From positions 10,118-74,117 of the forward strand of contig CAMDBH010000008.1 of the NCBI GenBank assembly GCA_945889325.1: a DNA stretch of 64,000 nt. The letters are read 5' to 3'. The notes under the pieces are model-generated. The model was not told the DNA's origin. It made no database searches and saw only the letters and a program-made list of their open reading frames with translations. Position 1 is the first letter of the stretch, and every line of letters begins with the position of its first letter. The position numbers and the translations under genes were made by a program. The DNA is from Klebsiella pneumoniae. GTDB lineage: Bacteria > Myxococcota_A > UBA9042. This document shows, piece by piece, positions 36,816-64,000 of the stretch.

Positions 36816-36818
36816 AAA

Positions 36819-42582: not shown

Positions 42583-43281
42583 ATGGAAGAACAACATGTG
42601 GAGACAATTTCAGTAATTCTAGCTGCTTATAATGAAGTCGACAACATTGAGGCCGTTGTCAACGAGATCCAAGACGTTCTAACTTCTCTGCGCGTGCCGA
42701 CCGAACTCTTGATCGTGGACGACGGCAGCCTCGATGGAACGGGCGAGGTCGCCGATGAACTCCAACGTCGTTATCAAAATGTTCGAGTGGTTCACCACGG
42801 CGGTAACCAAGGCTTGGGTGGCGTTTATCGAACCGGACTGAGGGAGGCAGTTGGTGAATTTGTTACGTTTTTTCCAGCTGACGGTCAGTTTCCTGCAAGT
42901 ATCATCGCGAATTTCTTTGCGCTCATCGTCGATCACGAACTTGTCCTTGGCTACATTCCACAACGTAAATCGTCGATTGTCGCTTTGGGCCTTTCTGCGG
43001 CGGAACGAGTGATTTACCGCGCGCTGTTCGGCCGCTTCCCTCGATTTCAGGGCATTTTCATGGTGAGACGCAGCATTCTTGCCGAAATTCCTCTGGTTTC
43101 CGATGGTCGCGGTTGGGCCGTGAGCATGGAACTGATCCTGCGCATCTCCAGAGGGCCATACCGCGTCATCTCGGCACCGAACGAACTGCGCCCGCGCCTT
43201 TCTGGGCAAAGCAAGGTCAACAATTTTCGCAATATTGTGGCGAATCTAAAACAAGTTTTGGTTCTACGCACCAAACTTTGA
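42583..43281 (+). CDS. GT2 glycosyltransferase, polyprenol-phosphate sugar synthase (DPM1/GtrB/CsbB)-like, soluble form
   Basis: Motifs include ISVILAAYNEVDNI, LLIVDDGSLDGT and HGGNQGLGGVYRTG. The protein is about 232 aa with no TM tail. Confidence 0.75.
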   Translation: MEEQHVETISVILAAYNEVDNIEAVVNEIQDVLTSLRVPTELLIVDDGSLDGTGEVADELQRRYQNVRVVHHGGNQGLGGVYRTGLREAVGEFVTFFPADGQFPASIIANFFALIVDHELVLGYIPQRKSSIVALGLSAAERVIYRALFGRFPRFQGIFMVRRSILAEIPLVSDGRGWAVSMELILRISRGPYRVISAPNELRPRLSGQSKVNNFRNIVANLKQVLVLRTKL

Positions 43282-43364
43282 GACCCAACGGCATCGATCT
43301 TACTTGCGAGATCCGCGACGAAACGCCATGATAGCGAAGCCCTTCATGGGCGTTGGGTTCAATC

Positions 43365-46300
43365 ATGCGCACGTCAAGCCAACGAAACGATCTGGTGGCC
43401 AATATCTTCGCCCTAGGCGCGGCCACATTGAGCGCGGCCCACTGTTCCGGCACGGCCGGCAATGGCGGATCGCCAGATGCGGAATCCGATGTAATTACAG
43501 TGGAGTTGTCGATTTCCGACTTAGGTAAAGCACCATCGGACGCGACGGTCGATACGGCGGTGCCGTCAGACACAGCATCAGAAAATGACAGCGCATCCGA
43601 CGTCATCAGCAGCGACAGCCAAGGGAAATGCCCCGGCGCATCTGGCTGTGTGTGCAAAGAAAACGGCGACTGCGACAACGCCAAATGCATCGAAACCGGC
43701 AGCAGCAAGGTGTGCGCAACGCCGTGTGTCGACAAGTGTGAAGACGGCTACAAATGCACGCTGATCAACGGCACAAACGGCGATTCGTCAACGATCTGCG
43801 TACCCAAATTCCTGCACTTGTGCGATCCGTGCGTGAAATCAAAAGATTGCCAGACGCTCGGCAATGGTGACGCGGCCTGCGTCAACGAGGGCGGTCAAGG
43901 CAACTTTTGCGGCACCGCTTGCGGTACGGACGCCGATTGCGCGGCCGGTTACAGTTGCCAAAACGTGATTTCTGTCGAAGGCGCCCCAATAAAGCAGTGC
44001 GCCAAGACGTCGACGGCTCCTGAATTGAAGTTCGGCGAATGCATTTGTAGCGACCTAGCCACAGGACAAAAGCTGCAAACAAGTTGTTTTGTCGAGCACA
44101 AAAATGACAAGGGCGAACTCACCGGCAAATGTGCGGGCGTTAGGGTCTGTGCCGCCACAGGACTTACGAGCTGCGCCGCACCGGCGCTGGACGTTGAGGT
44201 TTGCGACGGCAAGGACAATGACTGCGACGGCAGCACAGACGAAAATACCTGCGACGCTGGCGGTGCTTGCAATGTGGGCTCTTGCGATCCGCAGGCGGGA
44301 TGCCAGTACAACAAGCTCAACAATGTGCCATGCGACGCAGACAAGAATGCCTGTACTGATAATGATCAGTGCAAACAAGGTGTTTGTGTGCCTGGGGCCG
44401 GCAAAATCTGCGATGATGGCAACCCTTGCACGACGGACAGTTGCGATCCGGCGAGCGGCTGCACGAAAACCAGCGACGACGGCAAAGCGTGCGACGCGGA
44501 CGGCAATGCATGCACGGCCGCCGATCATTGTGTTGGTTCAACCTGCACCGTCGGCAAGATCGTTGTATGCGAGAACACCGATTCCTGCAAAAAGGCCACC
44601 TGTGATCTAACTACAGGTAAATGCATCGGTAAATCGCTCCAAGACGGCGTCCCCTGCGACGATGCCACGGTGTGCACGCAAGGCGATCACTGCCAGTCGG
44701 GTGAGTGCTTGGGCAAGATTGTCAGCTGCGATGACAACAATCCGTGTACCGGCAATATTTGCGATGCCATCAACGGCTGCAGCACGTCGAATTTGGAGGG
44801 CATCGCTTGCGATGACGATAACCCGTGTACGATCGGGGACTTGTGTAAAGGTGGCCTTTGTGCAAACGGCGCCCTGAAGGTGTGCAACTCCGGGATGGCC
44901 TGCACGCTGGGCACATGCGATTTGGCAAATGGCAAGTGCAATTACAAGAACAAGGCCCTCGGCGCGCCCTGCAATGACGGCGACGCGTGCTCGGAAAACG
45001 ATGGCTGTGCCGACGGCGCGTGTCAGGGAAAAGCGCTGAATTGTGATGACTCAAACGCTTGCACAAACGACAGTTGCGACATGCTTGTGGGTTGCGCGCA
45101 CAAACCCAACGTGTCGCCGTGTTCCGATGGCGACGCCTGCACGCAGAGCGACAACTGCGTGAACAGCGCGTGCATCTCCGGACCCAACAAAGTTTGCGAG
45201 GACGGCGTTCTCTGCACCGCTGACACCTGCAACAAGACCAGCGGCGCATGTGTTTTTGATGCGGTCGGCATCAACGGGACGCCGTGCGATGACGGCAACG
45301 TTTGCACGCTCGGGGACAACTGCAAAAACGGCCTTTGCTCGGTCGGCATCGTCAAAGATTGCAACGACAACAACGCTTGCACCGATGATTTGTGCGACAA
45401 AATCAAAGGTTGCAGCCCCAACTTCAACAGCAAAGCCTGCGACGACAGCAACGCCTGCACCAAGGACGACCTTTGTAAATTTGGCGACTGCGAGGGCAGC
45501 ATGGTCAATTGCAATGACGGCAACCCCTGCACAGACGATGCCTGCGAAGCGAAAAAGGGTTGCCTCACAGCAAGCAACACCGCATTATGCAATGACAATA
45601 GTGCCTGCACTTCTGGTGACGCGTGCAAAAACAGCGTCTGCGGCGGCGCGCCGGTGAACTGCGACGACGGAAATCCCTGCAGCGACGATAGTTGTGATAA
45701 AACAGCCGGTTGTGTAAATACGCCCAACGCTGCGCTCTGCCCAGACAACGATGCGTGCACGACCGCTGAAACATGTAAGAATCTCAATTGCATCAAAAAG
45801 GCCACCGTCTGTGACGACGCCAACGAGTGCACGATTGACACCTGTGACGGCGTAAAAGGTTGTCAAGTGGCCAATATGGTAGACAAAAGCTTATGCGCCG
45901 GTGGCGCAAAATGGTGCGTGGCAGGAAGTTGCGTCGCCAAGGCGTTCTGCGGCGACGGTATTGTCAATCAAGCGACCGAGGACTGCGACGATGGCAATTT
46001 GGTCGACAACGACGGTTGCAACAATGCGTGCAAGAGCACGATACCCGTAAGTTTTACCCTTAGCCCGTGCGGCGCAACTGGGCCCACCGGCCCGACCCAA
46101 GCCCAATGCGACGCCGCATACGCCGCCCAAAAGCTTGTTGTCAAAATCAACGGTGGATTTCAAGAGATTACTGTGCCAGCGACGGGCACTTATCATATTG
46201 AAGCTTATGGCGCCCAAGGTGGCGGCAACGGCGGCAACGGTGCCAAGGCCACGGGCGATGTCACGATCCAAGCTGGGACGGTTTTACGTTTCATGGTTGG

Positions 46301-46883
46301 TCAGATCGGTCTCGCCGCACCGGCGCAGGTTGGCAATGGCGGTGGCGGCGGGTCGTTTGTCGCGACGGCTGCCAACGTGCCGTTGGTGATTGCCGGCGGC
46401 GGCGGTGGTTGCGGCCACAACACCTGGAATGGCGGGCCTTGGGCCGAGCTCACCGGACGGGCGGGCAACGACGGCGGCGCAGGCATGTACGTCGGAGGCA
46501 ATGGTGGCGTCGGTGGCGCTGGCGGAAAATTCAGCATAACCACAGGCAACGGCACGCCCAATGGCGGCGGCGGTGGCGGTTTCAACGGCGATGGCGGCAG
46601 TTCCGGCGCGTCGACGGGAGGCAAGTCCTTTGTCAACGGCGGCGCTGGTGGTAATTCTACGGGTGGTTTCGGCGGCGGCGGTGGATCCAACGTCTTTATT
46701 TACGGCTGCGGCGCATCGCCCCACGGTGGCAGCGGCGGCGGCGGTTACTCCGGCGGCGGCGGCGGCGGCGACAATTGCAACGGCCCGGGCGGCGGCGGTG
46801 GCTCCTATGTAAGCGGCGCCAACACTGCGATGACTGCCGGTGCAAACGCGGGCGCGGGCAAGATCATCTTCACCAAACTGTAG
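43365..46883 (+). CDS. Giant secreted Cys-rich repeat protein 1, with a C-terminal ALK/LTK-type glycine-rich domain
   Basis: The signal reads [27 protein letters not shown]. The N-terminal Cys module carries a MopE-type motif ([14 protein letters not shown]). About 20 four-Cys repeats of about 25 aa follow (CDDxNxCTxDxCxxxxGC). One myxo-type repeat is present ([28 protein letters not shown]). The last 280 aa are Gly-rich with the motifs [14 protein letters not shown] and [17 protein letters not shown]. Confidence 0.85.
   Translation: [1172 protein letters not shown]
44250..45900 (+). repeat. In-frame tandem array of four-Cys repeats of about 25 aa (protein 1)
   Basis: The periodic pattern is C-x5-C-x4/5-C-x4/5-C, alternating CDDxNxCTxDxC and CxDGxxCTxGDxC units. 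Confidence 0.8.
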
Positions 46884-46892
46884 AAAAGCACT

Positions 46893-46924
46893 GGAAAAAC
46901 TGGAGGGTGACCTTTTTCCGAAGC
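46893..46924 (-). repeat. A5 motif copy with A5/T5 inverted repeat: GGAAAAA-CTGGAGGGTGACC-TTTTTCC
   Basis: The copy lies 10-40 nt after the stop of Cys-repeat gene 1. The reverse strand reads GCTTCGGAAAAAGGTCACCCTCCAG. Confidence 0.6.
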
Positions 46925-47120
46925 ACAGTCACGATACCAACTCGCCGGCACGCTCCGCACACTTTCCTGTCACACCGCCCATGTGCGCCGACGGGCTCGC
47001 TCGGCCTGATCCTGCTTGCTCGCCCGCACGCCTGGCCATAGTCAGCCTTCCCCGGGCGTAAACCTAATCGATATTGCGGGTTTGACATGGTTCGGAGATT
47101 TCGCCGAAATACTGGCTTGC

Positions 47121-47140
47121 TTGGCATAATTTGTGCTAAT
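47121..47140 (+). promoter_or_regulatory. Sigma-54-type promoter-like element P1 (TTGGCATAATTTGTGCTAAT) upstream of Cys-repeat gene 2
   Basis: The sequence is TGGCAT-N5-GTGCT with correct GG-N10-GC spacing, about 90 nt upstream of the ATG at 47231. It is 16/20 identical to P2. The palindrome ATTTCG-C-CGAAAT at 47098-47110 lies just upstream. Confidence 0.45.
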
Positions 47141-47230
47141 GTTGAAAAAGCCGCCGTGCTGGGGCGCGGTTGGTGCGCGTGTGTCTTTTTCGCGCCAATC
47201 AATCGGCGCGAAATGTTGTTGGAGGAAAAG

Positions 47231-51862: not shown

Positions 51863-51944
51863 ACAGCTGCTTGGGCGGCCGTTGATGTTCGCGATGATGC
51901 AAGTTCGGCGGCGGGTCGAACGGATGCACAGTCAGGAGTCGCCG

Positions 51945-54900: not shown

Positions 54901-55184
54901 GCACTGGGTGTCATGGCGGACCCGGCGGATCGGGCGGATTTTCCATGGGGCAGACCTGCGACGCGATTTACACGGGGATTGTTAATAAGACTACAAATAC
55001 ACCCAATTGTGCGTCTAAGACCTATGTCAAACCGAGTAGCGCCAGCGGCAGTTTGGTTTGGCTCAAGGCAGACCCGAATGCGGTCCAAGCGTGCGGCGGG
55101 AAAATGCCTTTGGGTTCCAGCGGCGTGTCGCAAGCCGATGCGGACATGTTGAAGGCTTGGATCGATGGCGGCGCGCTGAAGTAG
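51945..55184 (+). CDS. Giant Cys-rich repeat lipoprotein 3 (1079 aa), with a C-terminal CxxCH PSCyt1-like domain
   Basis: The ATG at 51945 has AGGAG upstream. The lipobox is MFRRATVGFVLILAGC. An acidic linker is followed by a DDGDLCNG module and about 30 four-Cys repeats. The C-terminus reads VILGNGCTGCHGG...VKPSSASGSLVWLKA...CGGKMPLGSSGVSQADADMLKAWIDGGA. Confidence 0.85.
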   Translation: MFRRATVGFVLILAGCEDAVVEGPVDLGDAVAGDIATDVVQDIAAVDTGPDVTVADVAAADLGSEVADVPAVEEVGPDAEVQTESDVAPDVAEDIAPDIAPDSGPEVAIDAGCQNDLQCVVMDDGDLCNGIWRCKAGTCEPDPTSAVVCAAVPQCNLNICAPKTGKCEAGFVINGVICDDGSVCTASDACNAAGICVGKGIVCDDKNVCTTDSCDKTTGCVFTANTIACDDGNACTKDDACANQLCGGVGFDCDDKNVCTDDLCKPVVGCTHSANALVCDDGSACTTGDVCAANICAGKTFSCDDKNVCTNDSCNAVTGCVNAPNSILCNDGSACTVTDGCAGGKCVGKALACDDSNLCTDDACNPASGCVFSASSIACDDGSKCTTGDACAASLCKGLAVNCDDSNPCTTDACAPASGCTHVNNTGPCSDGTLCTTGDVCNGGLCKTSPVNCDDNNACTDDGCDQAAGCVHVNNSVSCNDGTLCTASDACAAGVCKGVAVNCDDSNVCTSDICAGLTGCKHNPILGVCSDNNACTNSDTCTNGACVGGTVNCNDVNVCTDDSCDVIKGCQHAANTASCDDGSGCTVGDICASSLCKSGPAKVCNDNDSCTSDSCSGVSGKCVYSKILGCAGGGGCKIDADCNDNDLCTNDVCNVGAGCISTFNAAACNDGNACTSGDACTVGLCQGAAAVCDDKNPCTDDTCKAATGCSFINNLQACDDGSACTSDDKCAAGVCGGANICDDSNACTTDSCGANNSCVHTPIVGLCDDGNACTGGDSCATGACVGKVISCDDKNVCTDDACSAKSGCAHVSNTSGCDDGNSCSSADICAGGLCAGKGLICDDKNPCTTDTCGNNGCIFTNNTAGCDDASACTSGDVCSAGNCSGVAIACDDGNSCTDDSCDKATGCAHANNAAACSDSNLCTTGDFCSGGLCKAGVAKSCDDANACTTDSCDAATGNCVNSPILGCGATPTWTDTCNKVILGNGCTGCHGGPGGSGGFSMGQTCDAIYTGIVNKTTNTPNCASKTYVKPSSASGSLVWLKADPNAVQACGGKMPLGSSGVSQADADMLKAWIDGGALK
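52475..54845 (+). repeat. In-frame tandem array of four-Cys repeats of about 25 aa (protein 3)
   Basis: The period is the same as in proteins 1 and 2. Confidence 0.8.
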
Positions 55185-55253
55185 GCGTTGGTCTGTTGCC
55201 GGTGGCTCGTGCGGCAAAAACGACCAATTCCGCCAAACCCCTGTCATTTCATG

Positions 55254-55283
55254 GATCAGAAAAAGGGTGCCCTCCCACTTTTT
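55254..55283 (+). repeat. A5 motif copy with A5/T5 inverted repeat: GATCAGAAAAAG-GGTGCCCTCCCA-CTTTTTG
   Basis: The copy lies 70 nt after the stop of Cys-repeat gene 3 and upstream of the next lipoprotein gene. Confidence 0.6.
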
Positions 55284-55339
55284 GCGCATCGTCGGACTCT
55301 CCGCTACGCTTAAGGGCCACCGGTGGGCGACACAACAAA

Positions 55340-56575
55340 ATGACGCGAGAAATCCTTATTAGCCTCACCTTCACAGCGCTGTGCGGCTGCTACGACGACA
55401 CCACGGATCGCCCTGCGCCTGCAAATACCCTAAATAATATCGGTTTTACCCTCGCCGCCTCCAAACGTGTCTTGGTGGTCGTCGATTCCGACTACGCCTC
55501 GTCCGCGGTCGCCTTCGTCGACCTCACCAGCGGTGAAGTGGCCTCAAAAATCCTGACATCCGGCACAAAAGTCTCCGCAACCACCACGGCGCTCAGCGGT
55601 GATCTCGTCGTTGCCCAATCGCCGGCTTTGGACCTCACGGCTGTGCTTGTCGATCGCAACCACAGCGTTATTACCTGGATCGGGCGCGGCGGGGGCATCT
55701 CACAACTATCCGTATCTACGGGATTTGCTGCAAATCCTCAGGACTACGCACAAGTTTCAGCGCAGTACGGCTGGGCGTCGCGCAATGCCCGCAATCCGTT
55801 GCCGTCGGCCCCAACCGACGATTTCGACGAAGGCGACGACTTGGTCGAAATCGACCTAGCGACGCACAAGATCGTGCGCCGCGTACCCCTTGGCGCGCAC
55901 ACGAGCCTGCCCGGGGCCGCCGCTGGAGCGATGCGCATGGCGTTCGACGGCGTGTCACTTTGGGTGCCGCTGTCGTCGATCAGCGCCGATTTCAAAGCGC
56001 AAGGCGCCGGACGTGTCCTTGCCGTTGATGCCAAAGCTGCCGCCATTGTGGCTACGGTTGACCTACCGACAACCAAAAATTGCACGACGGTGCGCTACCT
56101 TGCAAAAACGCAGCGGTTGGCTGTCGCTTGCTCGGGGTCATTTGCAGAGCCGACCAAGCAAACGCAACAGAGCGCCATCGCGGTGTTTTCGGCGGCGACG
56201 CCTTCGGATGCAGAAATTGTCTTTCAAGCTAATGAGTTGCCTGGTGGGACCCCTTTTTCCAAAGACTTCGTTTGCCTAGACGAGCGCCACTGCGCCGTCA
56301 TCGGTTTCGGCGATTTCGCCATCGGCCGCCCCGACAAATTGTGGCATCTCGACCTAGTCACCCGCAAAGCAACCTTTGTCGCCAATTGCGCCGCCCCTTT
56401 CGCCGGCAGCGGCCTATTTGCCGATGCAGCCACCGGCATCGTCTGGCTCGGCGAACGCAAACGCAGCAACGGCGACCTGCGACGATTCGATTTCACCAAC
56501 GGCAACAAAGAATTGCCCGCGATCTCCAGCAATCCTGGCGGCCTCGGCGCCACAGAGTTCGGCGCGATGCAATGA
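55340..56575 (+). CDS. Hypothetical lipoprotein, beta-propeller-like
   Basis: The internal ATG at 55340 gives MTREILISLTFTALCGC. The sequence is beta-rich and repetitive (VLVVVDSDYASSAVAFVDL..., VLAVDAKAAAIVATVDL...). No domain was recognised with certainty. Confidence 0.6.
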   Translation: MTREILISLTFTALCGCYDDTTDRPAPANTLNNIGFTLAASKRVLVVVDSDYASSAVAFVDLTSGEVASKILTSGTKVSATTTALSGDLVVAQSPALDLTAVLVDRNHSVITWIGRGGGISQLSVSTGFAANPQDYAQVSAQYGWASRNARNPLPSAPTDDFDEGDDLVEIDLATHKIVRRVPLGAHTSLPGAAAGAMRMAFDGVSLWVPLSSISADFKAQGAGRVLAVDAKAAAIVATVDLPTTKNCTTVRYLAKTQRLAVACSGSFAEPTKQTQQSAIAVFSAATPSDAEIVFQANELPGGTPFSKDFVCLDERHCAVIGFGDFAIGRPDKLWHLDLVTRKATFVANCAAPFAGSGLFADAATGIVWLGERKRSNGDLRRFDFTNGNKELPAISSNPGGLGATEFGAMQ

Positions 56576-56796
56576 CACCGCCAAACGCTGACCGTTAGCG
56601 AGCGCACCGGCGCTGCGGCTTCTGCCGCCGCCTCGCCGACCGGCGTTCGTCGAAGGCACCCCTCTTGAATTTTCGCAATAAGCGACCAATGTTCTTCCAT
56701 GCCCCACCGCCAGCGCCCCACCCGCGCTGATCGCCGCCGCAAACGCCAACTTCGGTCGCTAATCTCGCCGAATCTCGGCGAATTTTGGCTTGACAC

Positions 56797-56816
56797 TTGG
56801 CATTTTTGCTGCTAAT
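56797..56816 (+). promoter_or_regulatory. Sigma-54-type promoter-like element P2 (TTGGCATTTTTGCTGCTAAT) upstream of the 998-aa lipoprotein gene
   Basis: The sequence is TGGCAT-N5-CTGCT with correct GG-N10-GC spacing, about 125 nt upstream of the ATG at 56940. The palindrome TCGCCGA-ATC-TCGGCGA lies at 56765-56781. Similarity to the P1 region extends over about 50 nt. Confidence 0.45.
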
Positions 56817-56939
56817 TCCCCCGCACCGCGCGTCACCTGCGCCAAACGGCACCGCGGTGGTTGCTGCCTGCCTGTGCCACTCTTTCTGCCCAACCGGGCA
56901 TGTTCGACCCGTGTCATCACCGGGTCTTGGATTTTTCGA

Positions 56940-59936
56940 ATGAAAACCAGCACATTCAAAAAAATCGCCTGCTTTCGCCGCCGCGCACTGAGCGTGCTGA
57001 CCGTGTTGTGCGCTCTCGCGACCAGCGCCTGCGAAGACGGTCCCTATCAGACATTCAGCGCGGCGCCGACAGGGGCGCAAAAACGTTGGAACGACGGCAC
57101 GCCGCCAGCCAATGCAAATCCACCTGCTTCTCAGGGTTTTGCCAGCGATTTTGCGGGCGGCGGCAACAAGCAGGAGATTTGCACTGGCGAGGAGCGGGCA
57201 AAGCGCTGGGCGGCAATGGTCCACGAGCCGATTATCCCGCCGACGCAGGCAGCCGGCTTGGACGGTGCGGGCGGGGCGGCGTGGCAAGGGCTGACTGTGG
57301 AGCAAGCGGAGAAAATCAACTGTCAAAGCACGTCCTTGGGCGATTATTACGGCGACGGCACGTTGGTCAATCTGTGGGGCGACAACGGCGAGGTTTTGAT
57401 CAACTATAGCTTGTCAAACCACAATAAAATTGTCGGGATTTCCTTGTCGACCGGTTACTTGGGCGCGTTGAATTTCAAAAGCCGCGATGGCAAAAACAAC
57501 TTCCAAATTGTGCTTAACACCCAGATCACCAAGAACGGCAATCCGTACCAAGTGGATTGGGATGACGACGCCAAATTTAACATTGAAGCGACTGAAATTG
57601 CAGATGCTTTGCTTGCAACGTACGCGCCGCAATTGCCGGCCGAAAACATCAAGGCGGGCAGTTGTATCGCCAATGGCCATTGCACCAAGGCGCTGTATCC
57701 GGATCAAGCCGCGCTGCGGGTTTGGCCGTTGGGCGTGCATTTGTCAGCCGATTACCCGTATTCGGCCCAGCCGATTCCGTCCAAATTCACAGGCATTGAC
57801 CTCAGTATGCCGCGGGTGATGCCGTATTCACTGGCGGCCACGCAGATGAAATTGGACAAGCAGGGCCCCCTTGCGCAAATCGGCGGATTGGGCGGCGGCG
57901 CCAAGACCTGCAAGATCGAACTGGGCATGACTTGGAAGGAATTCTTGGCCAATTGCGTCAATGTGACGGGTAAAAAGGAGCTAGACGATGTGGCCTACGC
58001 CAAGCTGACGGGCAACATCGGTCACGGCGCGGAGTCGTTTTTGTTCGATACTTCCGGCATCGACGTCAATTTCTTGTCGTCGACGCTGGCGCCGTTTGAA
58101 GTATTGCTGGATGCCGATCGACCCCAAGACGGCGACAAGGCCGACAGTGTGAGCATCGATGCCGAATCACTTGGAGTATTTACGAATGATTACGCAAATG
58201 ATGGCAAGACGCAGGATTTGCACGGCACAGGGGCCATCTACTTCGAATACGCGCGGCTGGTGCAAGCCGAGATCAACCGCCAGATTAAGCTCAAGAATCC
58301 CGCGGCTGTGACACATGAACTGGGAGATCCGGCCTGCCTTTTCCCCGATTCGGCCAACTTTGACCCTGCAACCTTCAAATACGCTGAAAATTGCACAGGT
58401 TTTGAAGGTTTTTTGACCCCGCTTGCGCCCTTGACCGACAAAGCCGGCGTGGCGATGCCGGTGGACGTCAGCCCGACCAACCGCTTGCGTTTGGGCGTCG
58501 ATGCCGCCGAGATCATTGGCGCTTTGGGCATGAAGCCGGGCAAGCCGCTGGCGGCCTTTTGCATGGACGCCAACGGCAACTTTGATACTGGCTATTTTTA
58601 TTGCGGCACGGGCGACAAATACGGTGCAAAAGGCGCGTTTTGGGATGTGTCGTATCAGCGGGTGCTCAGCGTGTTGGGCAAGGGGCAACTGACCAATCTG
58701 CCACTGGAATGTCGCGATAGGCGCTTCTACTTCCGCATGTACGCCACGGCCGTGGTCAAGTACCTGACAGTCGCAGCCGATCCGCTGGTTGTCGATCTCA
58801 GCGCCGTCGACATCGATTTGAACAACTTGATCTTCGACACCGAGGGCTCGGGGCAGTCCGAATCGGCCGAGTTCATCGACCGGCGTTTTGTCTCGGGCAC
58901 CCAAGCGCCGTTAGATTTTGTGATCGCCGCCGATATCGTCAACGGTACGCTTTATAACTACAGTTTTGCGCGCTATCTCGTGCGCGAAGAAGCTGCGATG
59001 TACCAGGCGATGACGGAGAAGTCAGGTACCCCTCTGGGCAAGGAAAATGGCTTGAGCCTGACAAATGTCTTTGGTAGTCCAGTGTTAGCTAACGGTTGGA
59101 CGGATCACGAGGTCAAGGGCGCCGCCAAGAAATCGGCGTATCAATGTGCGACGGCCGATTGGAAGACCAAAGACGAATACACCAAAATTTACAGCGCTTG
59201 TGAAGGAGAGTTGCCGCCACTGGATCCGACTTATGCCACAGATCCGACCGATCCGACGGCGCCGCCGGCGATGCCGCTGCGTGAAAATGGCAAACCGTAT
59301 TTGACGCCATACAAAGGCGCATTTGCGGGCAGCGAAACGCCATTTTCCCTTGGTTCGGCGCGCATCGACGTTGAAGCGACGTTGCCCGCATTGGCGTCGG
59401 CCAAAGTCAAAATCCACCGCACAAGCGACCCGTACGACCCAGAAAGCAGCGCGCTTGCACCGATTGCGGTCCTGGTGCCTTGGTTGCCACCGCAGCCGGG
59501 CTCGGGCTATTTTGTGCCGACCAACGCGCAGCAGGACAAGTTAATTGAAGCAGGACTCATTGATTTTTCCGGCGTGACGACCAGTTTTAGCGTTTATTAC
59601 CATCAAGTTGAGCAGACAGACGGTGGCTTGGGCCCTGTGCAAATCGCCGCCGTGGAGGCCAAGACCTTTCTGGGCGACGTATTCCTCTGCCAAGATCCGC
59701 AGTCCCGCGACATCCTGCGCACGCGCATGTACGGGTCGGTGCAAGCGATTATTGAATGGATCGATGCACATCCAGGTGTTTACGACGCCTGCGGCCTGCT
59801 CATCCGCTACAGCCCTTACGACAATTTTCCCGACTTCATCTTGTCGACTGTCAACGGCGTGCGTATCGGCGTAAGTCAAGGCGGCGGTTACGGTCGCGTC
59901 AATGACGCCACGCTGTCGTACGTCGAAACGAACTAA
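56940..59936 (+). CDS. Large orphan lipoprotein (998 aa), no recognisable domain
   Basis: The internal ATG at 56940 gives MKTSTFKKIACFRRRALSVLTVLCALATSAC. The reading frame is long and uninterrupted with coding-like composition. Confidence 0.65.
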   Translation: MKTSTFKKIACFRRRALSVLTVLCALATSACEDGPYQTFSAAPTGAQKRWNDGTPPANANPPASQGFASDFAGGGNKQEICTGEERAKRWAAMVHEPIIPPTQAAGLDGAGGAAWQGLTVEQAEKINCQSTSLGDYYGDGTLVNLWGDNGEVLINYSLSNHNKIVGISLSTGYLGALNFKSRDGKNNFQIVLNTQITKNGNPYQVDWDDDAKFNIEATEIADALLATYAPQLPAENIKAGSCIANGHCTKALYPDQAALRVWPLGVHLSADYPYSAQPIPSKFTGIDLSMPRVMPYSLAATQMKLDKQGPLAQIGGLGGGAKTCKIELGMTWKEFLANCVNVTGKKELDDVAYAKLTGNIGHGAESFLFDTSGIDVNFLSSTLAPFEVLLDADRPQDGDKADSVSIDAESLGVFTNDYANDGKTQDLHGTGAIYFEYARLVQAEINRQIKLKNPAAVTHELGDPACLFPDSANFDPATFKYAENCTGFEGFLTPLAPLTDKAGVAMPVDVSPTNRLRLGVDAAEIIGALGMKPGKPLAAFCMDANGNFDTGYFYCGTGDKYGAKGAFWDVSYQRVLSVLGKGQLTNLPLECRDRRFYFRMYATAVVKYLTVAADPLVVDLSAVDIDLNNLIFDTEGSGQSESAEFIDRRFVSGTQAPLDFVIAADIVNGTLYNYSFARYLVREEAAMYQAMTEKSGTPLGKENGLSLTNVFGSPVLANGWTDHEVKGAAKKSAYQCATADWKTKDEYTKIYSACEGELPPLDPTYATDPTDPTAPPAMPLRENGKPYLTPYKGAFAGSETPFSLGSARIDVEATLPALASAKVKIHRTSDPYDPESSALAPIAVLVPWLPPQPGSGYFVPTNAQQDKLIEAGLIDFSGVTTSFSVYYHQVEQTDGGLGPVQIAAVEAKTFLGDVFLCQDPQSRDILRTRMYGSVQAIIEWIDAHPGVYDACGLLIRYSPYDNFPDFILSTVNGVRIGVSQGGGYGRVNDATLSYVETN

Positions 59937-60010
59937 CTGACGGCAGTGCTGCCTCGGCGCGGCCCGTTGCAACGTGTGTGTCTGCGCATCGCGCGCAAGT
60001 AGGTGATCAG

Positions 60011-63000
60011 ATGGTCAAATTCAGTCATGTCGCCGTTCGGTTGCTGCTTTTGTGTTTGGCGGCATCGGCTTGCGTACAAGATCGCCCGGCGCGCAACGGC
60101 GTGTTCAATGAGAATCAGTACCTACGCAAGGATTTCCTAATCCAGGCCGGCAACGGCGCGACGACGGATCCGGGCTGGTTTGTGAAAGCGACGGTGGTTG
60201 AAACGTCGTCGCCCAATCCTCTCGGCGGTGAAGCCATTGATTTGTTTCCGGGTCTTGAAAATGGCGGTGCCTACGTGCGCTTTCGCGTCACCCAAGACAA
60301 GTTGGAAATGGTCAGTTTGCGCGAACTTGGTCCAGATGCCGTCGGGAAAACCCAAACGGTTATCAATAGTTGGCCGGCGACCAACGTCGACTTGAAATTC
60401 CGCGTCAATTTAGACGGTGAGAACACCAATTTTTACGAAGAAAACCAAGAACTGGACTGGGACGTGCGTCAGTGGGTCAAATTGCAGTTTAATGTCAATG
60501 ATGGCGGCGACTTGCTGATGTTTGGACCGTACACCGGCGCGGGCTTGCAGCGCTGCACCGATCTGGGCCACGCCACGGTGACGCTGGTGCCCGATTCATA
60601 CTATGTCTTAGAAGATCAAGGCTATTTCCAATGGATCGAGGAGATTTCCTTGCCATTGCAGTGGAATGACGACACCTGTTACCAAGAATTTGGCGCAGCC
60701 GGCGATACTGCCCTGTCTTTGGGCCGTTCGCACGTGACTTTGCGCATCATGTTCAGCATGATGCGCGCCAATCCAGCGCCGACGTATCAGCCGCTGCAAG
60801 TGCAGGAAAAAGATCCGATCCACCACAAGTACGGCCCGATCGAGTTCTTAAGCATCGCCCGAGACCCGGACAGCGGTTTGCTGGCGGCGCGCAGCTTGGT
60901 CATGCGATTTGATCCCAAAAACCCGATGATGACTTGGTATTTTGCCCAAGGCTATCCAGAAGCATACAAGAAGCATTTCACCGACAAGAACGGCATCGTC
61001 GATCAAACCAATGCAATCCTGACCGCGGCCGGTGCGACCTTGCGTATGGAAGTCAAGAACTTTGATCAGGATCTGGCCAAAGATGAACGGCCACGGCAGT
61101 ACGGCGACATTCGCTACAATTTCCTGCGCTGGATGAGCGACAAGGATACCCAAGACACTTTTGCCGGTGTGGCGCAGTTCATTACAGATCCGCGGACGGG
61201 TGAGACGCTGTCAGCCTCGATCAACTTGAACGATTTTGCGATTAAAGACGAATATGTGCAGCGCATCGACTTCTATTTGCAGCAGATCGGCGCCAGCGCA
61301 AACATCAACAGCGCTGACGCTTGGCCCGACTTGTGCCCCAATGGCACCGCGCCCGCTTGCCGCAACGCCGACGATGCGGTCACGCCCTGCGCGGCCAACC
61401 AAGCCAAAGTCTGCGCCAAAGCCGCCGCAGTCGGCACGTGCGCTGAAGGTGCGGTGGCGGCGCTGGACGAGAAAAAGGTGGTGACGCTGCACAACACCAA
61501 TTCATCGCTCTTTGGCAAGATGCAGGAATACTTGCAAAAGCCGGTGGCGGATGTAGGTCCGCTTGGGCCAAAGGATTTTATCGCCAAGCAAGACCAAGAT
61601 TTTTACAACGCTTATTACGCGGTTTTGCCGTATTGGATTTACGCCGATCCGTGGATGAACTTGTTTGTCATGCCCGAAGGTCAAGACGGCGTCTACGGGC
61701 CGGAGGAAATTTGGAAGTCTTTGGCCGATGAAGCGGAATTTCACAAATTGACCGGTGCCATCGATCACGGCAAACAGCCGATTGCGGGCATGGCTGGCAA
61801 AGATGGGCTGGCCAACACCGCGGCTTTCCTTAACAAAATGAAAAAGCTCACCCGCAACCACGTCGAATTGCCGCGCAAACTGCAGCGGGCGCATAGTCGA
61901 GTCAAGAAAGACGTGCCAGCGGCGTTTTCCTTCCTAGAAATGATGAAGAAGAACGCGCGCCATTGTGTCGGCGGCAAATGGGAGACCAAGGAGCAATGGA
62001 CCCAAGCGTTTATCGATAGTTACTGGAGCCAAGTGATGTGGCATGAATTTGGCCATGTGCTAGGGCTGGAGCACAACTTCATGGCTTCGGTCGATAGGCC
62101 AAACTTTCCGACGTACAAAATCGGTGACACCACGAATGTGAGCATGTATTCGTCCAGCGTGATGGAATACAACGCCGCGCCGGATCGGGTGTTTTGGCAT
62201 CCCGGCTTTGGGCCCTACGATGCCGGTGCCATCGCTTGGATTTACGCCAACACCCAGAAAAGCGGCAAAGGCGGCAGCAGCATTTCCGGCCAAGTCAGCG
62301 CGACCGCGCCGTGGAACGACCCACTGGGCTTTAACAAAGACGGCAAGGAAACGCAGTTTTTATATTGTTCTCATCAGCACTTGCAGTATACACCCCTTTG
62401 CCGCATGGGCGATTCCGGGACCACGCCGAGCGAAATTATCGCCAACGACATCGACCGCTATGAATGGCAGTACCAATGGACCAATTTCCGCGTCTATCGC
62501 AAGTTCTGGGATCTACATGCTTATGCCGATGCGCCGGCGACGATGATAACCGAGTTGCGCCGCTTCTTGCCGATGTGGACCACCGATTGGGCGCCGGACG
62601 TGTTGGTCGACGCTTTTCGGCGGGTCGGCGTGGTCAATCCGGCGGCAAAAGGCTCTGATGTCGATTACTACGACACCTTGGTGTCAAAATTCAACAAGGA
62701 AGCGTCGCAAGCCAATCAGATGATGGCGGCTTTCCATAAGGCCGTGATTCAACAGTCTTCTGGTGAGCGACCCTTTAGCACGACCTACGACAAGTTTTAC
62801 GGCGACGTGACGCAGCAAGGCATCATTTTGGACAAACTTTTTGCGATGCAGGCCTTTGTCGGGCTTTGGCCGATCGACAATTACGACTTGAATCAAACCG
62901 AAGGCTATTACATGGCCAGTTTTTCTGAAGCAGGCGACGCGTCTTACAACGCTGTCGCCGAAGACGTCGTGGCCAGCATGATCGGCGGTCAATACGATGT

Positions 63001-63481
63001 TTATCCTTACTTTAAGCCACTTGCAGTCGCTCAATTTGCCGCTGACACCCATGACCCGGCCTTTAGCGGCCGCATTGAGATGCGCGACTGGATCGGCGGC
63101 AAAATCTTTGAGCGTGAACAGGATTTCCTAGATTTCTTTCGCAGCATGGCGGTCAAATACGCCTTTGGCGGTTGTACGGCGCTCAACACCTGCAAGTACG
63201 ACCCGCAAACGCCCGCCGTCGATGCGACTGACACCCACCATAGTGATACTTATAACGAATTCATCGGTCCCGATGGTCGCCGCTACATTTGGGCCTACAT
63301 CGCCAACCGCAACCAGTGGGTGGCCGTCGACCGCGACCGGAACATTGCTAGCTATTTGATTGTACGGGCTTATACCGCCGACGTCATCAACCAACAGGAC
63401 GATGGCGGCTCCCCCGGTTTCGCTTATGATTACGAGTTGGAGATGAAGTACTTCCTCGATGCCTTCACTTATTACAATTAG
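60011..63481 (+). CDS. Large zinc metalloprotease lipoprotein (metzincin, DUF4953/Met-zincin-like)
   Basis: The ATG at 60011 has AGGTGA upstream. The lipobox is MVKFSHVAVRLLLLCLAASAC. The zinc site is MWHEFGHVLGLEHNF, followed by SSSVMEYN and GPYDAGAIAWIYAN. Confidence 0.8.
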   Translation: MVKFSHVAVRLLLLCLAASACVQDRPARNGVFNENQYLRKDFLIQAGNGATTDPGWFVKATVVETSSPNPLGGEAIDLFPGLENGGAYVRFRVTQDKLEMVSLRELGPDAVGKTQTVINSWPATNVDLKFRVNLDGENTNFYEENQELDWDVRQWVKLQFNVNDGGDLLMFGPYTGAGLQRCTDLGHATVTLVPDSYYVLEDQGYFQWIEEISLPLQWNDDTCYQEFGAAGDTALSLGRSHVTLRIMFSMMRANPAPTYQPLQVQEKDPIHHKYGPIEFLSIARDPDSGLLAARSLVMRFDPKNPMMTWYFAQGYPEAYKKHFTDKNGIVDQTNAILTAAGATLRMEVKNFDQDLAKDERPRQYGDIRYNFLRWMSDKDTQDTFAGVAQFITDPRTGETLSASINLNDFAIKDEYVQRIDFYLQQIGASANINSADAWPDLCPNGTAPACRNADDAVTPCAANQAKVCAKAAAVGTCAEGAVAALDEKKVVTLHNTNSSLFGKMQEYLQKPVADVGPLGPKDFIAKQDQDFYNAYYAVLPYWIYADPWMNLFVMPEGQDGVYGPEEIWKSLADEAEFHKLTGAIDHGKQPIAGMAGKDGLANTAAFLNKMKKLTRNHVELPRKLQRAHSRVKKDVPAAFSFLEMMKKNARHCVGGKWETKEQWTQAFIDSYWSQVMWHEFGHVLGLEHNFMASVDRPNFPTYKIGDTTNVSMYSSSVMEYNAAPDRVFWHPGFGPYDAGAIAWIYANTQKSGKGGSSISGQVSATAPWNDPLGFNKDGKETQFLYCSHQHLQYTPLCRMGDSGTTPSEIIANDIDRYEWQYQWTNFRVYRKFWDLHAYADAPATMITELRRFLPMWTTDWAPDVLVDAFRRVGVVNPAAKGSDVDYYDTLVSKFNKEASQANQMMAAFHKAVIQQSSGERPFSTTYDKFYGDVTQQGIILDKLFAMQAFVGLWPIDNYDLNQTEGYYMASFSEAGDASYNAVAEDVVASMIGGQYDVYPYFKPLAVAQFAADTHDPAFSGRIEMRDWIGGKIFEREQDFLDFFRSMAVKYAFGGCTALNTCKYDPQTPAVDATDTHHSDTYNEFIGPDGRRYIWAYIANRNQWVAVDRDRNIASYLIVRAYTADVINQQDDGGSPGFAYDYELEMKYFLDAFTYYN

Positions 63482-63485
63482 TTGC

Positions 63486-64000
63486 GTGCGGTTGTCGCTT
63501 CTGGCGCTGCTGTTTGTGGCGCAGACCGCCGCGGCCCAGGAGCCGCCAGCGCTCGCGCTGGAGGTTACGCCAGCTATTACGCCGGAAATACCAGGACTTG
63601 AGCTAGAAATCACAGCCACGACCCTGCCAACGGCGGCGACGGTCGCGGCTAGCGAAAAACTGTGGGAAGTTGGCCTGACCGTTGAAACTCACCGCTTGCT
63701 CATCCAAAACGACCTGGAAGGCGCCGCCAACAACAAATTGGTTAACTTCCTGTATGCTTACGTGGGCTATCACCTCACAAAGCAGGATACTGTTGAAGTC
63801 CGTGGCTATTTCTACCAACGCTTCTTGGCCGACCCGGGCGAAACGGGTCTGCGCAATGACGATATTGCGCTTTATTACAAGCACTTGTTGCCTAGGATAC
63901 CATTTTCCGGCGGCGAACTGGAAGCGCGCATCACCGGCGCCCTTTCGATTCCCGGCTCGTTTTCGACCAAGCTGATGGGCCCATACACCGCCCCGCGCCT
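63486..64000 (+). CDS. OMP-like secreted protein, 3'-truncated by the window edge; absent from the supplied ORF track
   Basis: A GTG at 63486, 5 nt after the metalloprotease stop, opens a frame that stays stop-free to the window end. It gives the signal peptide VRLSLLALLFVAQTAAAQEP. Beta-strand/aromatic-rich text follows (NFLYAYVGYHLT, VRGYFYQRF, IALYYKHL). Confidence 0.55.
   Translation, partial: MRLSLLALLFVAQTAAAQEPPALALEVTPAITPEIPGLELEITATTLPTAATVAASEKLWEVGLTVETHRLLIQNDLEGAANNKLVNFLYAYVGYHLTKQDTVEVRGYFYQRFLADPGETGLRNDDIALYYKHLLPRIPFSGGELEARITGALSIPGSFSTKLMGPYTAPR

What the first reader, a model, noticed from the sequence alone, without database searches (positions are those of the whole stretch)
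42583..64000. 21-kb co-directional surface-protein locus: candidate undescribed contact/adhesion apparatus
Nine consecutive + strand genes form a compact block.

Gene order:
- a soluble GT2 polyprenol-phosphate sugar synthase-like enzyme
- three tandem giant Cys-repeat proteins with N-terminal signal/lipobox
- a beta-propeller-like lipoprotein
- a 998-aa lipoprotein with no recognisable domain
- a 1156-aa HExxH metzincin lipoprotein
- an OMP-like protein

Nearly every product carries a signal peptide with a Cys at the cleavage region. None looks cytoplasmic apart from the GT2. Two internal promoters share a near-identical sigma-54-type 20-mer, at 47121 and 56797.

I do not recognise this gene set as any named secretion, adhesion, gliding or outer-membrane-exchange system. 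The nearest analogy is the Cys-rich stalk of myxobacterial TraA, which displays a recognition domain. Here the polarity is reversed: the anchor is N-terminal and the variable tip is C-terminal.

A role in cell-cell or prey contact is inference only.
Basis: partly seen in the sequence, partly recalled or inferred. Interest (0 to 1): 0.85.

Follow-up and report, generated by a model that had tools for sequence, protein, structure and literature searches.

The report
Three unrelated envelope gene modules, adjacent
The 21-kb block of secreted and lipid-anchored proteins in this uncultured myxobacterium is real, but it is three separately inherited gene modules rather than one contact machine; only the last three genes (an unknown lipoprotein, a zinc-protease lipoprotein and an outer-membrane barrel) travel together across many related genomes, and that trio has never been described.

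Summary

- **Conserved triad.** Only g6 (998-aa lipoprotein), g7 (1156-aa metzincin lipoprotein) and g8 (342-aa outer-membrane barrel) stay together. g6 and g7 are adjacent in 14 of 14 Myxococcota MAG or metagenome loci, down to 33% identity. g8 is present in all 9 loci long enough to show it, once in the permuted order g8-g6-g7.
- **No link to the rest.** No triad locus carries a homologue of the GT2 or g5. Only L014 has a protein related to the Cys-repeat genes.
- **g6 is unclassified.** It has no Pfam, PDB-sequence or fold neighbour.
- **g2-g4** are Dicty_CTDC cysteine-repeat proteins. Their order with g5 is kept only in a close relative. One tip is ALK/LTK-like and glycine-rich; another carries a CxxCH motif.
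- **g5** is a seven-bladed propeller lipoprotein with best fold matches to Bacteroides BtuG and XusB. Its relatives sit directly behind TonB-dependent receptors.
- **Promoter motifs.** The sigma-54-like motif is conserved upstream of g3 but not upstream of g6.

Best reading: a patchwork of envelope genes containing one undescribed protease triad. Interest is moderate.

The parts
42583..43281 (+). g1: 232-aa soluble GT2 glycosyltransferase. Its specific function is unknown and no link to the rest of the block was shown.
   Evidence: PF00535 E=1.6e-22. All NCBIfam hits are far below their cut-offs and of mixed specificity. No homologue lies near any g6-family locus.
43365..46883 (+). g2: 1172-aa secreted Cys-repeat protein. 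It has a signal peptide but a non-canonical lipobox. The order of parts is an N-terminal Cys module ending in a MopE-like CDGxDNDCDG motif, Dicty_CTDC repeats, one DUF4215 unit, then a Gly-rich tip.
46044..46880 (+). C-terminal tip of g2, about 279 aa: a homologue of the ALK/LTK TNF-like / glycine-rich ligand-binding domain.
   Evidence: phmmer against PDB hits human ALK ectodomain structures 7LRZ, 7MZY and 7NWZ at E=2.4e-11, and LTK at 2e-8. The significant alignment covers only about 86 N-terminal residues of the tip.
47121..47140 (+). Sigma-54-like -24/-12 motif (TTGGCAT-N6-TGCTAAT), 109 nt upstream of the g3 start codon.
   Evidence: It is conserved as TGGCACGGTTCATGCTAA in the otherwise diverged intergenic region of the related contig L017.
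47231..51862 (+). g3: 1543-aa Cys-repeat protein with about 20 Dicty_CTDC units, an atypical lipobox and no distinct C-terminal tip.
   Evidence: Its orthologue in L017 is 77% identical.
51945..55184 (+). g4: 1079-aa Cys-repeat lipoprotein with lipobox ILAGC, an acidic linker of about 100 aa, and 15-16 repeats of about 50 aa.
   Evidence: The L017 orthologue is 936 aa, so repeat number varies.
54840..55181 (+). C-terminal tip of g4: a module of about 110 aa carrying a CTGCH (CxxCH) motif. It is possibly cytochrome-c-like.
   Evidence: The only family hit is a weak Pfam Cytochrom_C match, E=0.19. The motif is read directly from the sequence.
55340..56575 (+). g5: 411-aa seven-bladed beta-propeller lipoprotein of a BtuG/XusB-like family associated with TonB-dependent receptors.
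   Evidence: AF2 model pLDDT 87, pTM 0.86. Top Foldseek hits are BtuG and XusB, E about 2e-11, TM 0.73-0.76. Relatives sit next to TonB-dependent receptors and Peripla_BP_2/FecCD genes.
56765..56791 (+). Terminator-like hairpin plus T-run between g5 and g6.
56790..56816 (+). Promoter-like region upstream of g6. TTGACA lies at 56790-56795. It overlaps the sigma-54-like TTGGCAT-N6-TGCTAAT at 56797-56816.
   Evidence: In the 86%-identical orthologue locus L022, TTGACA is kept but the -24 GG is lost. No such motif was found upstream of the other orthologues.
56940..59936 (+). g6: 998-aa lipoprotein, first gene of the conserved triad. The mature N-terminus C-E-D-G-P is invariant and there are 14 invariant Cys. 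No known domain or fold was found.
60011..63481 (+). g7: 1156-aa metzincin lipoprotein, second gene of the triad. HEFGHVLGLEH is at residues 678-688 (nt 62042-62074) and the Met-turn SVMEY at 716-720.
   Evidence: DUF4953 E=1.5e-11 in all 9 orthologues tested. The gene is always adjacent to g6.
63459..64000 (+). g8: outer-membrane beta-barrel-like protein, third gene of the triad. It is 342 aa and continues about 490 nt past the window end. Its start overlaps the g7 stop by 23 nt.
   Evidence: Full sequence from L001:16520-17548. It has a type-I signal peptide, a C-terminal aromatic residue in all orthologues, and amphipathic strands.

Best explanation
The block is a patchwork of three neighbouring envelope modules in an uncultured Myxococcota genome. 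It is not one machine.

**Module C (g6-g7-g8)** is the only unit conserved across lineages.
- Shown: the three genes are inherited together. g7 has an intact metzincin zinc site. g6 and g7 carry invariant lipobox cysteines. g8 has a type-I signal peptide and an outer-membrane-type C-terminal aromatic signal. The g7/g8 start-stop overlap is conserved.
- Inferred: the three products form an outer-membrane-anchored zinc-protease complex. The g8 barrel sits in the outer membrane. g7 (the catalytic subunit) and g6 (a non-catalytic partner for substrate binding, regulation or scaffolding) are lipid-tethered next to it on flexible N-terminal linkers. They cleave envelope or extracellular proteins.
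- Whether they face the periplasm or the cell surface is unknown.

**Module B (g3-g4-g5, probably with the paralogue g2)** is lineage-specific.
- g2-g4 are disulfide-rich Dicty_CTDC stalks of about 50-aa repeats that hold different C-terminal tips away from the membrane.
- The tips are an ALK/LTK-like glycine-rich domain in g2, none in g3, and a CxxCH module in g4.
- g5 is a BtuG/XusB-like propeller lipoprotein. Its relatives cap TonB-dependent receptors, so it most likely captures a small ligand such as a corrinoid, siderophore or haem.

**Module A (g1)** is a generic GT2 with no demonstrated link to the others.

Promoter-like motifs upstream of g3 and g6, plus a terminator-like hairpin after g5, fit separate transcription units.
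For: **Triad synteny**
- tblastn of the block's proteins against 13 genome loci, all Myxococcota MAGs, finds g6, g7 and g8 adjacent wherever the contig allows.
- Identities are 38-59% for g6, 48-66% for g7 and 30-54% for g8.
- The same holds at the edge of the family (33-35% g6 identity, L019-L021) and in the 85%-identical L022.
- L021 has the permuted order g8-g6-g7 (hmmsearch E=4e-84). This argues for selection on linkage rather than simple inheritance of gene order.
- The flanks are unrelated between loci.
- No GT2 or g5 homologue lies in any triad locus. The only hit to a Cys-repeat protein is in L014.

**g7**
- H678, E679, H682, G685, H688 and the Met-turn residues S716, M718, E719, Y720 are invariant.
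- DUF4953 is hit in 9 of 9 orthologues.

**g6**
- The family has at least 136 clusters, all from metagenomes or MAGs and all unnamed.
- The lipobox Cys and 14 further Cys are invariant.
- The model has pTM 0.76 with residues 1-78 disordered.

**g8**
- Every orthologue ends in Y or F.
- The overlap with the g7 stop codon is 23-26 nt in 5 loci.

**g5**
- Fold. TonB-receptor and ABC-importer neighbours.

**Cys-repeat genes**
- The g2-g5 order is kept only in the close relative L017, with a change in repeat number.
- Another MAG (L018) carries a lipobox + Dicty_CTDC + FGE-sulfatase-tip protein. This supports the picture of a stalk displaying a variable tip.

**Transcription units**
-.
Against: - No experiment and no complex prediction shows that g6, g7 and g8 interact physically.
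- g8 could not be modelled. Its full sequence lies outside the window and its homologue search returned only 3 hits. It matches no outer-membrane protein family, so its barrel nature rests on sequence features alone.
- g6 has no recognisable fold. Its role as a partner is a guess.
- One triad locus, L014, does carry a Cys-rich lipoprotein with a g2/g3-like N-terminal module 3 kb upstream. A loose association with Cys-rich lipoproteins is therefore not fully excluded.
- The synteny sample is about 17 loci. They were found by pattern-based or word-based searches, which may miss divergent or cultured-organism members.
- In the window g5 has no TonB-dependent receptor next to it. Its role here may differ from that of its relatives.
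Confidence: 0.65

Rival explanations
1. One reading: all the genes form one co-regulated surface apparatus for cell-cell or prey contact. The Cys-repeat stalks act as adhesins, and the protease, lipoprotein and barrel act as its machinery.
For: - The genes are co-directional and tightly packed, and all products except the GT2 are exported.
- Two similar promoter-like motifs are present.
- One other triad locus, L014, has a related Cys-rich lipoprotein nearby.
Against: - The genes are not co-conserved. 13 of 14 informative triad loci lack any GT2, Cys-repeat or g5 homologue within the available flanks of up to 10 kb.
- g5 relatives belong to TonB-dependent uptake loci.
- A terminator-like hairpin and a separate promoter-like region precede g6.
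- The motif upstream of g6 is not conserved.
Confidence: 0.05
2. The triad is a surface-lipoprotein display system. g8 is a dedicated translocon that flips g6 and g7 to the cell surface, as Slam proteins do in Neisseria. On the surface they act on prey or on extracellular protein.
For: - The barrel gene is always next to the two lipoprotein genes and is translationally coupled to g7.
- g6 has an invariant acidic C-E-D-G-P after the lipid-modified Cys.
- g4 (C-E-D) and g5 (C-Y-D-D) also have acidic residues after the Cys. From memory, this resembles the acidic surface-export signals of Bacteroidota lipoproteins.
Against: - g8 does not match DUF560/Slam or any other outer-membrane protein family.
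- At 342 aa it lacks the periplasmic TPR domain that Slam proteins have (from memory).
- No rule for lipoprotein surface export is known for Myxococcota.
Confidence: 0.2
3. The triad is a periplasm-facing housekeeping complex that processes or quality-controls envelope proteins. It would have no role in interactions with other cells.
For: - g7 is the most conserved of the three genes (mean column identity 64%), as expected for an enzyme with a fixed endogenous substrate.
- The many invariant disulfide cysteines in g6 fit a periplasmic or extracellular location equally well.
Against: - The family was found only in a subset of uncultured Myxococcota lineages. No named cultured-organism homologue appears among the 120 best hits. 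This argues against a core housekeeping role.
- Proteins of about 1000 aa are unusually large for periplasmic processing enzymes.
Confidence: 0.15
4. g3-g4-g5 form an extracellular cofactor-scavenging relay. The CxxCH tip of g4 and the BtuG/XusB-like g5 would bind a tetrapyrrole or siderophore and pass it to a TonB-dependent receptor encoded elsewhere.
For: - g5's fold and the synteny of its relatives.
- In L024 the relative sits next to a gene of the CbiA/GATase_3 cobyrinic-acid-synthase type.
- g4 carries a CTGCH motif.
- The g3-g4-g5 order is kept in L017.
- The window encodes a class II B12-dependent ribonucleotide reductase.
Against: - The CxxCH module has only a weak family match, E=0.19.
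- No receptor, ABC importer or riboswitch is present in the window.
- The g3-g4-g5 order is known only from one close relative.
- Propellers match one another generically: non-BtuG hits are only 100- to 1000-fold weaker.
Confidence: 0.15

Closest known systems
DUF4953 'Met-zincin' family (Pfam PF16313), large secreted or lipoprotein zinc metalloproteases
   Same: - g7 and all 9 orthologues tested score above the Pfam gathering threshold.
- They have the HExxHxxGxxH-N-F zinc site and the SVM(E/D)Y Met-turn.
- A second tier of 950-1100-aa relatives at 27-33% identity aligns with residues 665-1015.
   Different: - Only positions 5-100 of the 316-position profile match.
- The N-terminal ~650 aa and the far C-terminus are specific to the triad-linked subfamily.
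- The fixed partnership with g6 and g8 is not a described feature of the family.
- No paper in the searchable library mentions the family.
BtuG (vitamin B12) and XusB (xenosiderophore) surface lipoproteins of Bacteroides, which cap TonB-dependent transporters (PMC6143338, PMC10404256, PMC13142918)
   Same: - g5 is a lipoprotein with a seven-bladed propeller fold, and these are its best structural matches.
- g5 relatives are encoded directly downstream of TonB-dependent receptors and next to BtuF/FecCD-type importers.
   Different: - Sequence identity is only 12-14%, and g5 has no Pfam match.
- The phylum is different.
- In this window there is no adjacent receptor.
- The ligand is unknown.
Myxobacterial TraA: PA14 variable domain, Cys-rich stalk and MYXO-CTERM anchor (described from memory)
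   Same: Both are long cysteine-rich repeat stalks that carry a globular domain at the far end. g2 has one DUF4215 (Myxococcus Cys-rich repeat) unit.
   Different: - The repeats are Dicty_CTDC, not the TIGR02232 type.
- No PA14 domain and no MYXO-CTERM tag were detected.
- The anchor is N-terminal, a lipobox or signal peptide.
- No TraB-like partner was identified.
Slam-dependent surface lipoproteins of Neisseria: an outer-membrane barrel encoded next to the lipoproteins it exports (described from memory)
   Same: A barrel gene is invariably linked to two lipoprotein genes.
   Different: - g8 has no DUF560 match.
- g8 is much smaller, with no periplasmic domain.
- Translocation is untested.
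Extracellular TNF-like / glycine-rich domain of the metazoan ALK and LTK receptors (PDB 7LRZ, 7NWZ, 7NX0)
   Same: - The g2 tip aligns with the start of the domain at E=2.4e-11.
- The aligned stretch includes the CGAxGPxGPTQAQC and Y.I..YGA.GG motifs.
- It is followed by long poly-Gly stretches, as in ALK.
   Different: - It is bacterial and sits at the end of a Cys-repeat stalk.
- Only about 86 residues align significantly.
- The function in bacteria is unknown.

Membership tests
Dicty_CTDC repeat proteins (PF00526) | Multiple CTDC cysteine repeats scoring above the Pfam gathering score | tested here: met
   g2 scores 65 bits (6 units), g3 176 bits (20 units) and g4 218 bits (16 units), against a cut-off of 27.
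TraA-type recognition protein | Myxococcus Cys-rich repeat stalk (TIGR02232 / DUF4215) | tested here: not met
   There is only one DUF4215 unit, in g2 (E=2e-7). g3 and g4 have none. NCBIfam gives no hit for g2-g4.
TraA-type recognition protein | PA14 variable domain and C-terminal MYXO-CTERM sorting tag | tested here: not met
   No Pfam or NCBIfam hit was found. The C-termini, read directly, end in a Gly-rich domain, a repeat, or the CxxCH module.
Metzincin / DUF4953 | HExxHxxGxxH zinc site plus a Met-turn, and a score above the Pfam cut-off | tested here: met
   g7 scores 44.5 bits against a cut-off of 24.2. The motif residues are invariant in 9 orthologues. 9 of 9 orthologues hit DUF4953.
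Metzincin / DUF4953 | Match over the whole 316-position family profile | tested here: not met
   Only profile positions 5-100 align.
BtuG/XusB-like capture lipoproteins | Lipoprotein with a seven-bladed beta-propeller | tested here: met
   The lipobox Cys17 is invariant. The AF2 model has pTM 0.86 and about 27 strands. The top 17 Foldseek hits are all Bacteroides lipoproteins or surface proteins, 16 of them BtuG or XusB entries, at E from 1.7e-11 to 9e-10.
BtuG/XusB-like capture lipoproteins | Encoded next to its TonB-dependent transporter | tested here: inconclusive
   Met for the relatives in L018, L023 and L024. Not met in the window itself, where no TonB-dependent receptor was found.
BtuG/XusB-like capture lipoproteins | High-affinity binding of a corrinoid or siderophore | not testable with these tools
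   This needs purified protein and binding assays.
Slam (DUF560) lipoprotein translocon | DUF560 14-stranded barrel with an N-terminal periplasmic domain | tested here: not met
   None of the 11 g8-family members hits DUF560 at E<=5. The PDB profile search was empty.
Outer-membrane beta-barrel protein (generic) | Signal peptide, amphipathic beta strands and a C-terminal aromatic residue | tested here: met
   The signal peptide reads AQTAAAQE. All 9 full-length orthologues end in Y or F. At least 9 amphipathic strand segments were found. No structure model was possible.
Sigma-54-dependent promoter | TGGCA-N7-TGC with GG-N10-GC spacing, upstream of the gene | tested here: met
   Sites at 47122 and 56798, which are 109 and 142 nt upstream of the start codons.
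Sigma-54-dependent promoter | Conservation of the -24 GG and -12 GC in orthologous upstream regions | tested here: inconclusive
   The elements are kept upstream of g3 in L017. Upstream of g6 the GG is lost in L022 while TTGACA is kept. The motif is absent from 15 other g6-orthologue upstream regions.
Sigma-54-dependent promoter | An enhancer-binding protein (Sigma54_activat domain) nearby | tested here: not met
   None was found among the 20 large upstream ORFs scanned in the window.
ALK/LTK glycine-rich ligand-binding domain | Significant sequence similarity to solved ALK/LTK ectodomains | tested here: met
   E=2.4e-11 to ALK and 2e-8 to LTK. Only the first ~86 residues align significantly.

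The most novel reading that the evidence does not exclude
g6-g7-g8 is a previously undescribed three-component outer-membrane machine restricted to uncultured Myxococcota. A dedicated small barrel would anchor or export two ~1000-aa lipoproteins. One is a metzincin. The other has a fold with no neighbour in the PDB. Together they would form a cell-surface proteolytic complex used on prey or on extracellular protein.
Probability: 0.3. Interest if true: 0.6.

Novelty: new variant of a known kind. Interest (0 to 1): 0.4.

Why it matters
- **The triad.** If it is a real complex, it adds a new type of outer-membrane lipoprotein-protease module. It also adds two protein families with no domain annotation, one of them (g6) without a detectable structural relative. 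These come from a predatory phylum whose uncultured lineages are poorly understood.
- **Method.** The case shows that a tidy co-directional block of exported proteins can be a patchwork, and that a synteny test resolves this cheaply.
- **Smaller leads.**
  - BtuG/XusB-style propeller lipoproteins linked to TonB-dependent receptors exist outside Bacteroidota.
  - A bacterial Cys-repeat stalk carries an ALK/LTK-type glycine-rich domain. This bears on where that metazoan receptor domain came from.

Tried and rejected
- **g8 homologue search** from the 180 aa inside the window gave only 3 hits and not the full-length protein. g8 therefore could not be folded. A profile of g8 against PDB and Pfam gave nothing.
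- **g6 classification** failed by every route:
  - Pfam and NCBIfam.
  - PDB by sequence and by profile.
  - Foldseek against PDB and BFVD.
  - Profile-profile comparison with g7, where only the signal peptides align.
It succeeded with 6 sequences.
- **Apparent g6-g7 fusion proteins** (P0200, P0223) would have been Rosetta-stone evidence. They contain Arg-rich out-of-frame-looking stretches, so I treat them as frameshift artefacts.
- **Rfam** on the whole window found no riboswitch or any other RNA family.
- **Tandem Repeats Finder** found no long DNA-level repeats in g2-g4, so the protein repeats are old and diverged.
- **Cluster look-up** gave no organism or protein names.
- **Literature searches** for DUF4953, DUF5117, PF16313 and Dicty_CTDC in bacteria returned nothing useful.
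- **A sigma-70 reading of the g3 motif** was rejected, because no TTGACA-like -35 lies at the right spacing. For g6 the sigma-70 reading is preferred.

Full report
**1. Observation**

ORF listing and translation confirm a co-directional + strand block from 42583 to the window end.

| Gene | Coordinates | Length | Description |
|---|---|---|---|
| g1 | 42583-43281 | 232 aa | GT2, PF00535 E=1.6e-22 |
| g2 | 43365-46883 | 1172 aa | Cys-repeat protein |
| g3 | 47231-51862 | 1543 aa | Cys-repeat protein |
| g4 | 51945-55184 | 1079 aa | Cys-repeat lipoprotein |
| g5 | 55340-56575 | 411 aa | propeller lipoprotein |
| g6 | 56940-59936 | 998 aa | lipoprotein, no known domain |
| g7 | 60011-63481 | 1156 aa | metzincin lipoprotein (HEFGHVLGLEH) |
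| g8 | 63459 onward | 342 aa | outer-membrane barrel-like protein |

- A 99.95%-identical public contig, L001, extends 4.8 kb past the window. It shows that g8 is 342 aa and is followed by - strand genes: a 260-aa protein, ComEC and a cytochrome c. The block therefore ends with g8.
- That makes eight genes, not nine.
- g2-g4 are 10.6-14.4% cysteine and hit the Dicty_CTDC repeat strongly. The repeat period is about 50 aa, with no DNA-level tandem repeats.
- Lipoboxes are canonical for g4-g7 and atypical for g2 and g3. g8 has a type-I signal.
- The two sigma-54-like sites exist. They are 16/20 identical, and they lie in the two largest intergenic gaps.

**2. Is it one unit? Synteny test**

- The g6 family has at least 136 clusters at 90% identity in the 5.8-billion-protein collection. 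All come from metagenomes or MAGs and none is named.
- A scan of one genome per GTDB species returned 13 loci, all from Myxococcota MAGs.
- tblastn of every protein of the block against these loci shows g6, g7 and g8 adjacent wherever the contig is long enough. No hit to g1-g5 appears within up to 10 kb on either side.
- All-against-all clustering of the flanking ORFs shows that nothing else is shared between loci.
- Four more loci behave the same way: L019-L021 at 33-35% g6 identity and L022 at 85%.
- In L021 the barrel gene lies upstream, giving the order g8-g6-g7. Linkage survives rearrangement.
- The g7 stop / g8 start overlap of 23-26 nt recurs in 5 loci. This suggests translational coupling.
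- One exception is noted. L014 has a 1337-aa lipoprotein with a g2/g3-like N-terminal Cys module and MopE-like repeats 3 kb upstream of its g6 homologue.

A three-gene core, however, is strongly co-conserved.

**3. The triad**

- *g7.* It is a metzincin. The zinc ligands and the Met-turn are invariant in 9 orthologues, and all 9 pass the DUF4953 threshold.
  - Only about 95 profile positions match. PDB sequence hits (MMPs, serralysins) are marginal.
  - An exhaustive search of 1.84 billion representatives gave 152 relatives at E<=1e-30.
  - These split into a small full-length tier and a second tier of 950-1100-aa proteins. The second tier aligns only with residues ~665-1015.
  - g7 is therefore a specialised branch of a large, unstudied protease family. 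No paper in the library mentions that family.
- *g6.* It has an invariant mature N-terminus C-E-D-G-P and 14 invariant cysteines.
  - Its AF2 model is reasonably confident: pLDDT 76 and pTM 0.76, with residues 1-78 disordered.
  - Foldseek finds nothing better than E=0.35 in the PDB or E=0.57 in BFVD.
  - None of 17 family members hits Pfam.
  - It is unrelated to g7.
- *g8.* All orthologues end in an aromatic residue and show amphipathic strands. No family or structure match was found.
- g7 is the most conserved of the three genes. For example, in L013 the identities are 50% for g7 against 38% for g6 and 37% for g8.

Inference: an outer-membrane-anchored protease complex. Orientation and substrate are unknown.

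**4. The Cys-repeat genes and g5**

- The related contig L017 (77-87% identity) keeps the order g2-g3-g4-g5. Its g4 orthologue is 936 aa rather than 1079 aa.
- The g2 tip is homologous to the ALK/LTK TNF-like / glycine-rich domain, E=2.4e-11.
- The g4 tip has a CTGCH motif and only a weak cytochrome c match. g3 has no distinct tip.
- A different MAG encodes a lipobox + Dicty_CTDC + FGE-sulfatase protein. This fits the idea of a generic stalk that displays varied tips.
- g5 folds confidently (pLDDT 87, pTM 0.86) into a propeller of about 27 strands.
- The 17 best PDB matches to g5 are all Bacteroides lipoproteins or surface proteins; 16 of them are BtuG or XusB entries.
- Independently, g5 relatives at 29-43% identity lie directly behind TonB-dependent receptors in L018, L023 and L024. 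They lie in front of Peripla_BP_2 / ABC / FecCD importers in L016 and L024. In L024 a gene of the cobyrinic-acid-synthase type is also adjacent.
- g5 is thus best read as a capture lipoprotein linked to a TonB-dependent receptor.
- The window itself has no such receptor, importer or riboswitch.

**5. Promoters**

- Upstream of g3, the -24 and -12 elements survive in L017 while the surrounding sequence has diverged. This supports a functional sigma-54-type site.
- Upstream of g6, the 86%-identical orthologue locus L022 has lost the -24 GG. It keeps the overlapping TTGACA and the 17-nt spacing to a TA-start hexamer.
- No sigma-54 motif precedes any other g6 orthologue. A sigma-70-type promoter is therefore more likely there.
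- A terminator-like hairpin at 56765-56781 precedes that promoter region.
- No enhancer-binding protein is encoded in the window ORFs scanned.

**6. Comparison with known systems, and verdict**

- The block is not a member of any named secretion, gliding or outer-membrane-exchange system.
- The TraA analogy is architectural only.
- The Slam analogy for g8 fails its family test.
- The g5-BtuG/XusB resemblance is supported by both fold and synteny, but not by sequence-family membership.

What remains novel is the g6-g7-g8 triad. It is a conserved, lineage-restricted trio that includes two unannotated families. Its mechanism is inferred, not shown.

Interest is moderate (0.4). It would be higher if surface exposure, or a three-protein complex, were demonstrated.

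Noticed in passing
window 46044-46880 (C-terminus of g2): A bacterial homologue of the metazoan ALK/LTK TNF-like / glycine-rich ligand-binding domain sits at the tip of a Cys-repeat stalk (E=2.4e-11 to PDB 7LRZ and others). The L017 orthologue keeps it.
   Followed up: partly
window 54840-55181 (C-terminus of g4): A module of about 110 aa carries CTGCH (CxxCH). From memory it resembles the planctomycete PSCyt1 layout (CxxCH ... MP ... WI..GA). Pfam gives only Cytochrom_C at E=0.19.
   Followed up: partly
window 29435-29454: A third copy of TTGGCAT-N6-TGCTAAT lies on the + strand. It sits inside overlapping ORFs with no obvious downstream + strand gene. It is unexplained.
   Followed up: partly
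window 27415-28683, - strand: This is a probable lipoprotein. An internal Met is followed by ...LLTFFAC, and a HEICHYLGLFH metzincin-type motif lies near the C-terminus. It has no Pfam hit. It would be a second metzincin-like lipoprotein in the window.
   Followed up: no
window 9372-12569: A class II (B12-dependent) ribonucleotide reductase with a low-complexity N-terminal extension of about 150 aa. It shows the organism uses cobalamin, which bears on the BtuG-like reading of g5.
   Followed up: no
window 32448-34775 and 42583-43281: A YfhO-like membrane protein scores just below the Pfam cut-off (26.2 against 28.5 bits). It lies 8 kb upstream of the soluble GT2 g1. Together the two could form a polyprenyl-phosphate-sugar glycosylation pair, by analogy with CsbB/YfhO (from memory).
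   Followed up: no
window 35001-38993, - strand: Two domain types more usual in eukaryotic matrix proteins appear here: a 579-aa protein hitting COLFI and Fibrinogen_C, and a 724-aa FG-GAP/ASPIC protein. A COLFI-hitting protein also lies near the g5 relative in L016.
   Followed up: no
L021:6408-14177: Permuted triad order g8-g6-g7 in a forest-soil metagenome contig.
   Followed up: yes
L014:278-4291: A 1337-aa lipoprotein with a g2/g3-like N-terminal Cys module followed by about 20 MopE-like CNGxDDNCDGxTDE repeats. It lies 3 kb upstream of a g6 homologue. It is the only hint of any Cys-rich protein near another triad.
   Followed up: partly
L018:14063-16858: A 931-aa lipoprotein combining Dicty_CTDC repeats, MopE-like motifs and a C-terminal FGE-sulfatase domain. 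It lies 3 kb downstream of a TonB-dependent receptor + g5-homologue pair.
   Followed up: partly
window 47155-47213: A strong hairpin (TTTCGCGCC...GGCGCGAAA) sits in the 5' leader of g3, between the sigma-54-like site and the ribosome-binding site. It is only partly conserved in L017, and there is no Rfam match.
   Followed up: no
P0200 and P0223: These called proteins join a g6-like C-terminal part to a g7-like N-terminal part. They contain Arg-rich stretches that look out of frame, so they are probably frameshifted assemblies rather than true fusions. They still show g6-g7 adjacency in lineages where the g6 part is only 27% identical.
   Followed up: partly
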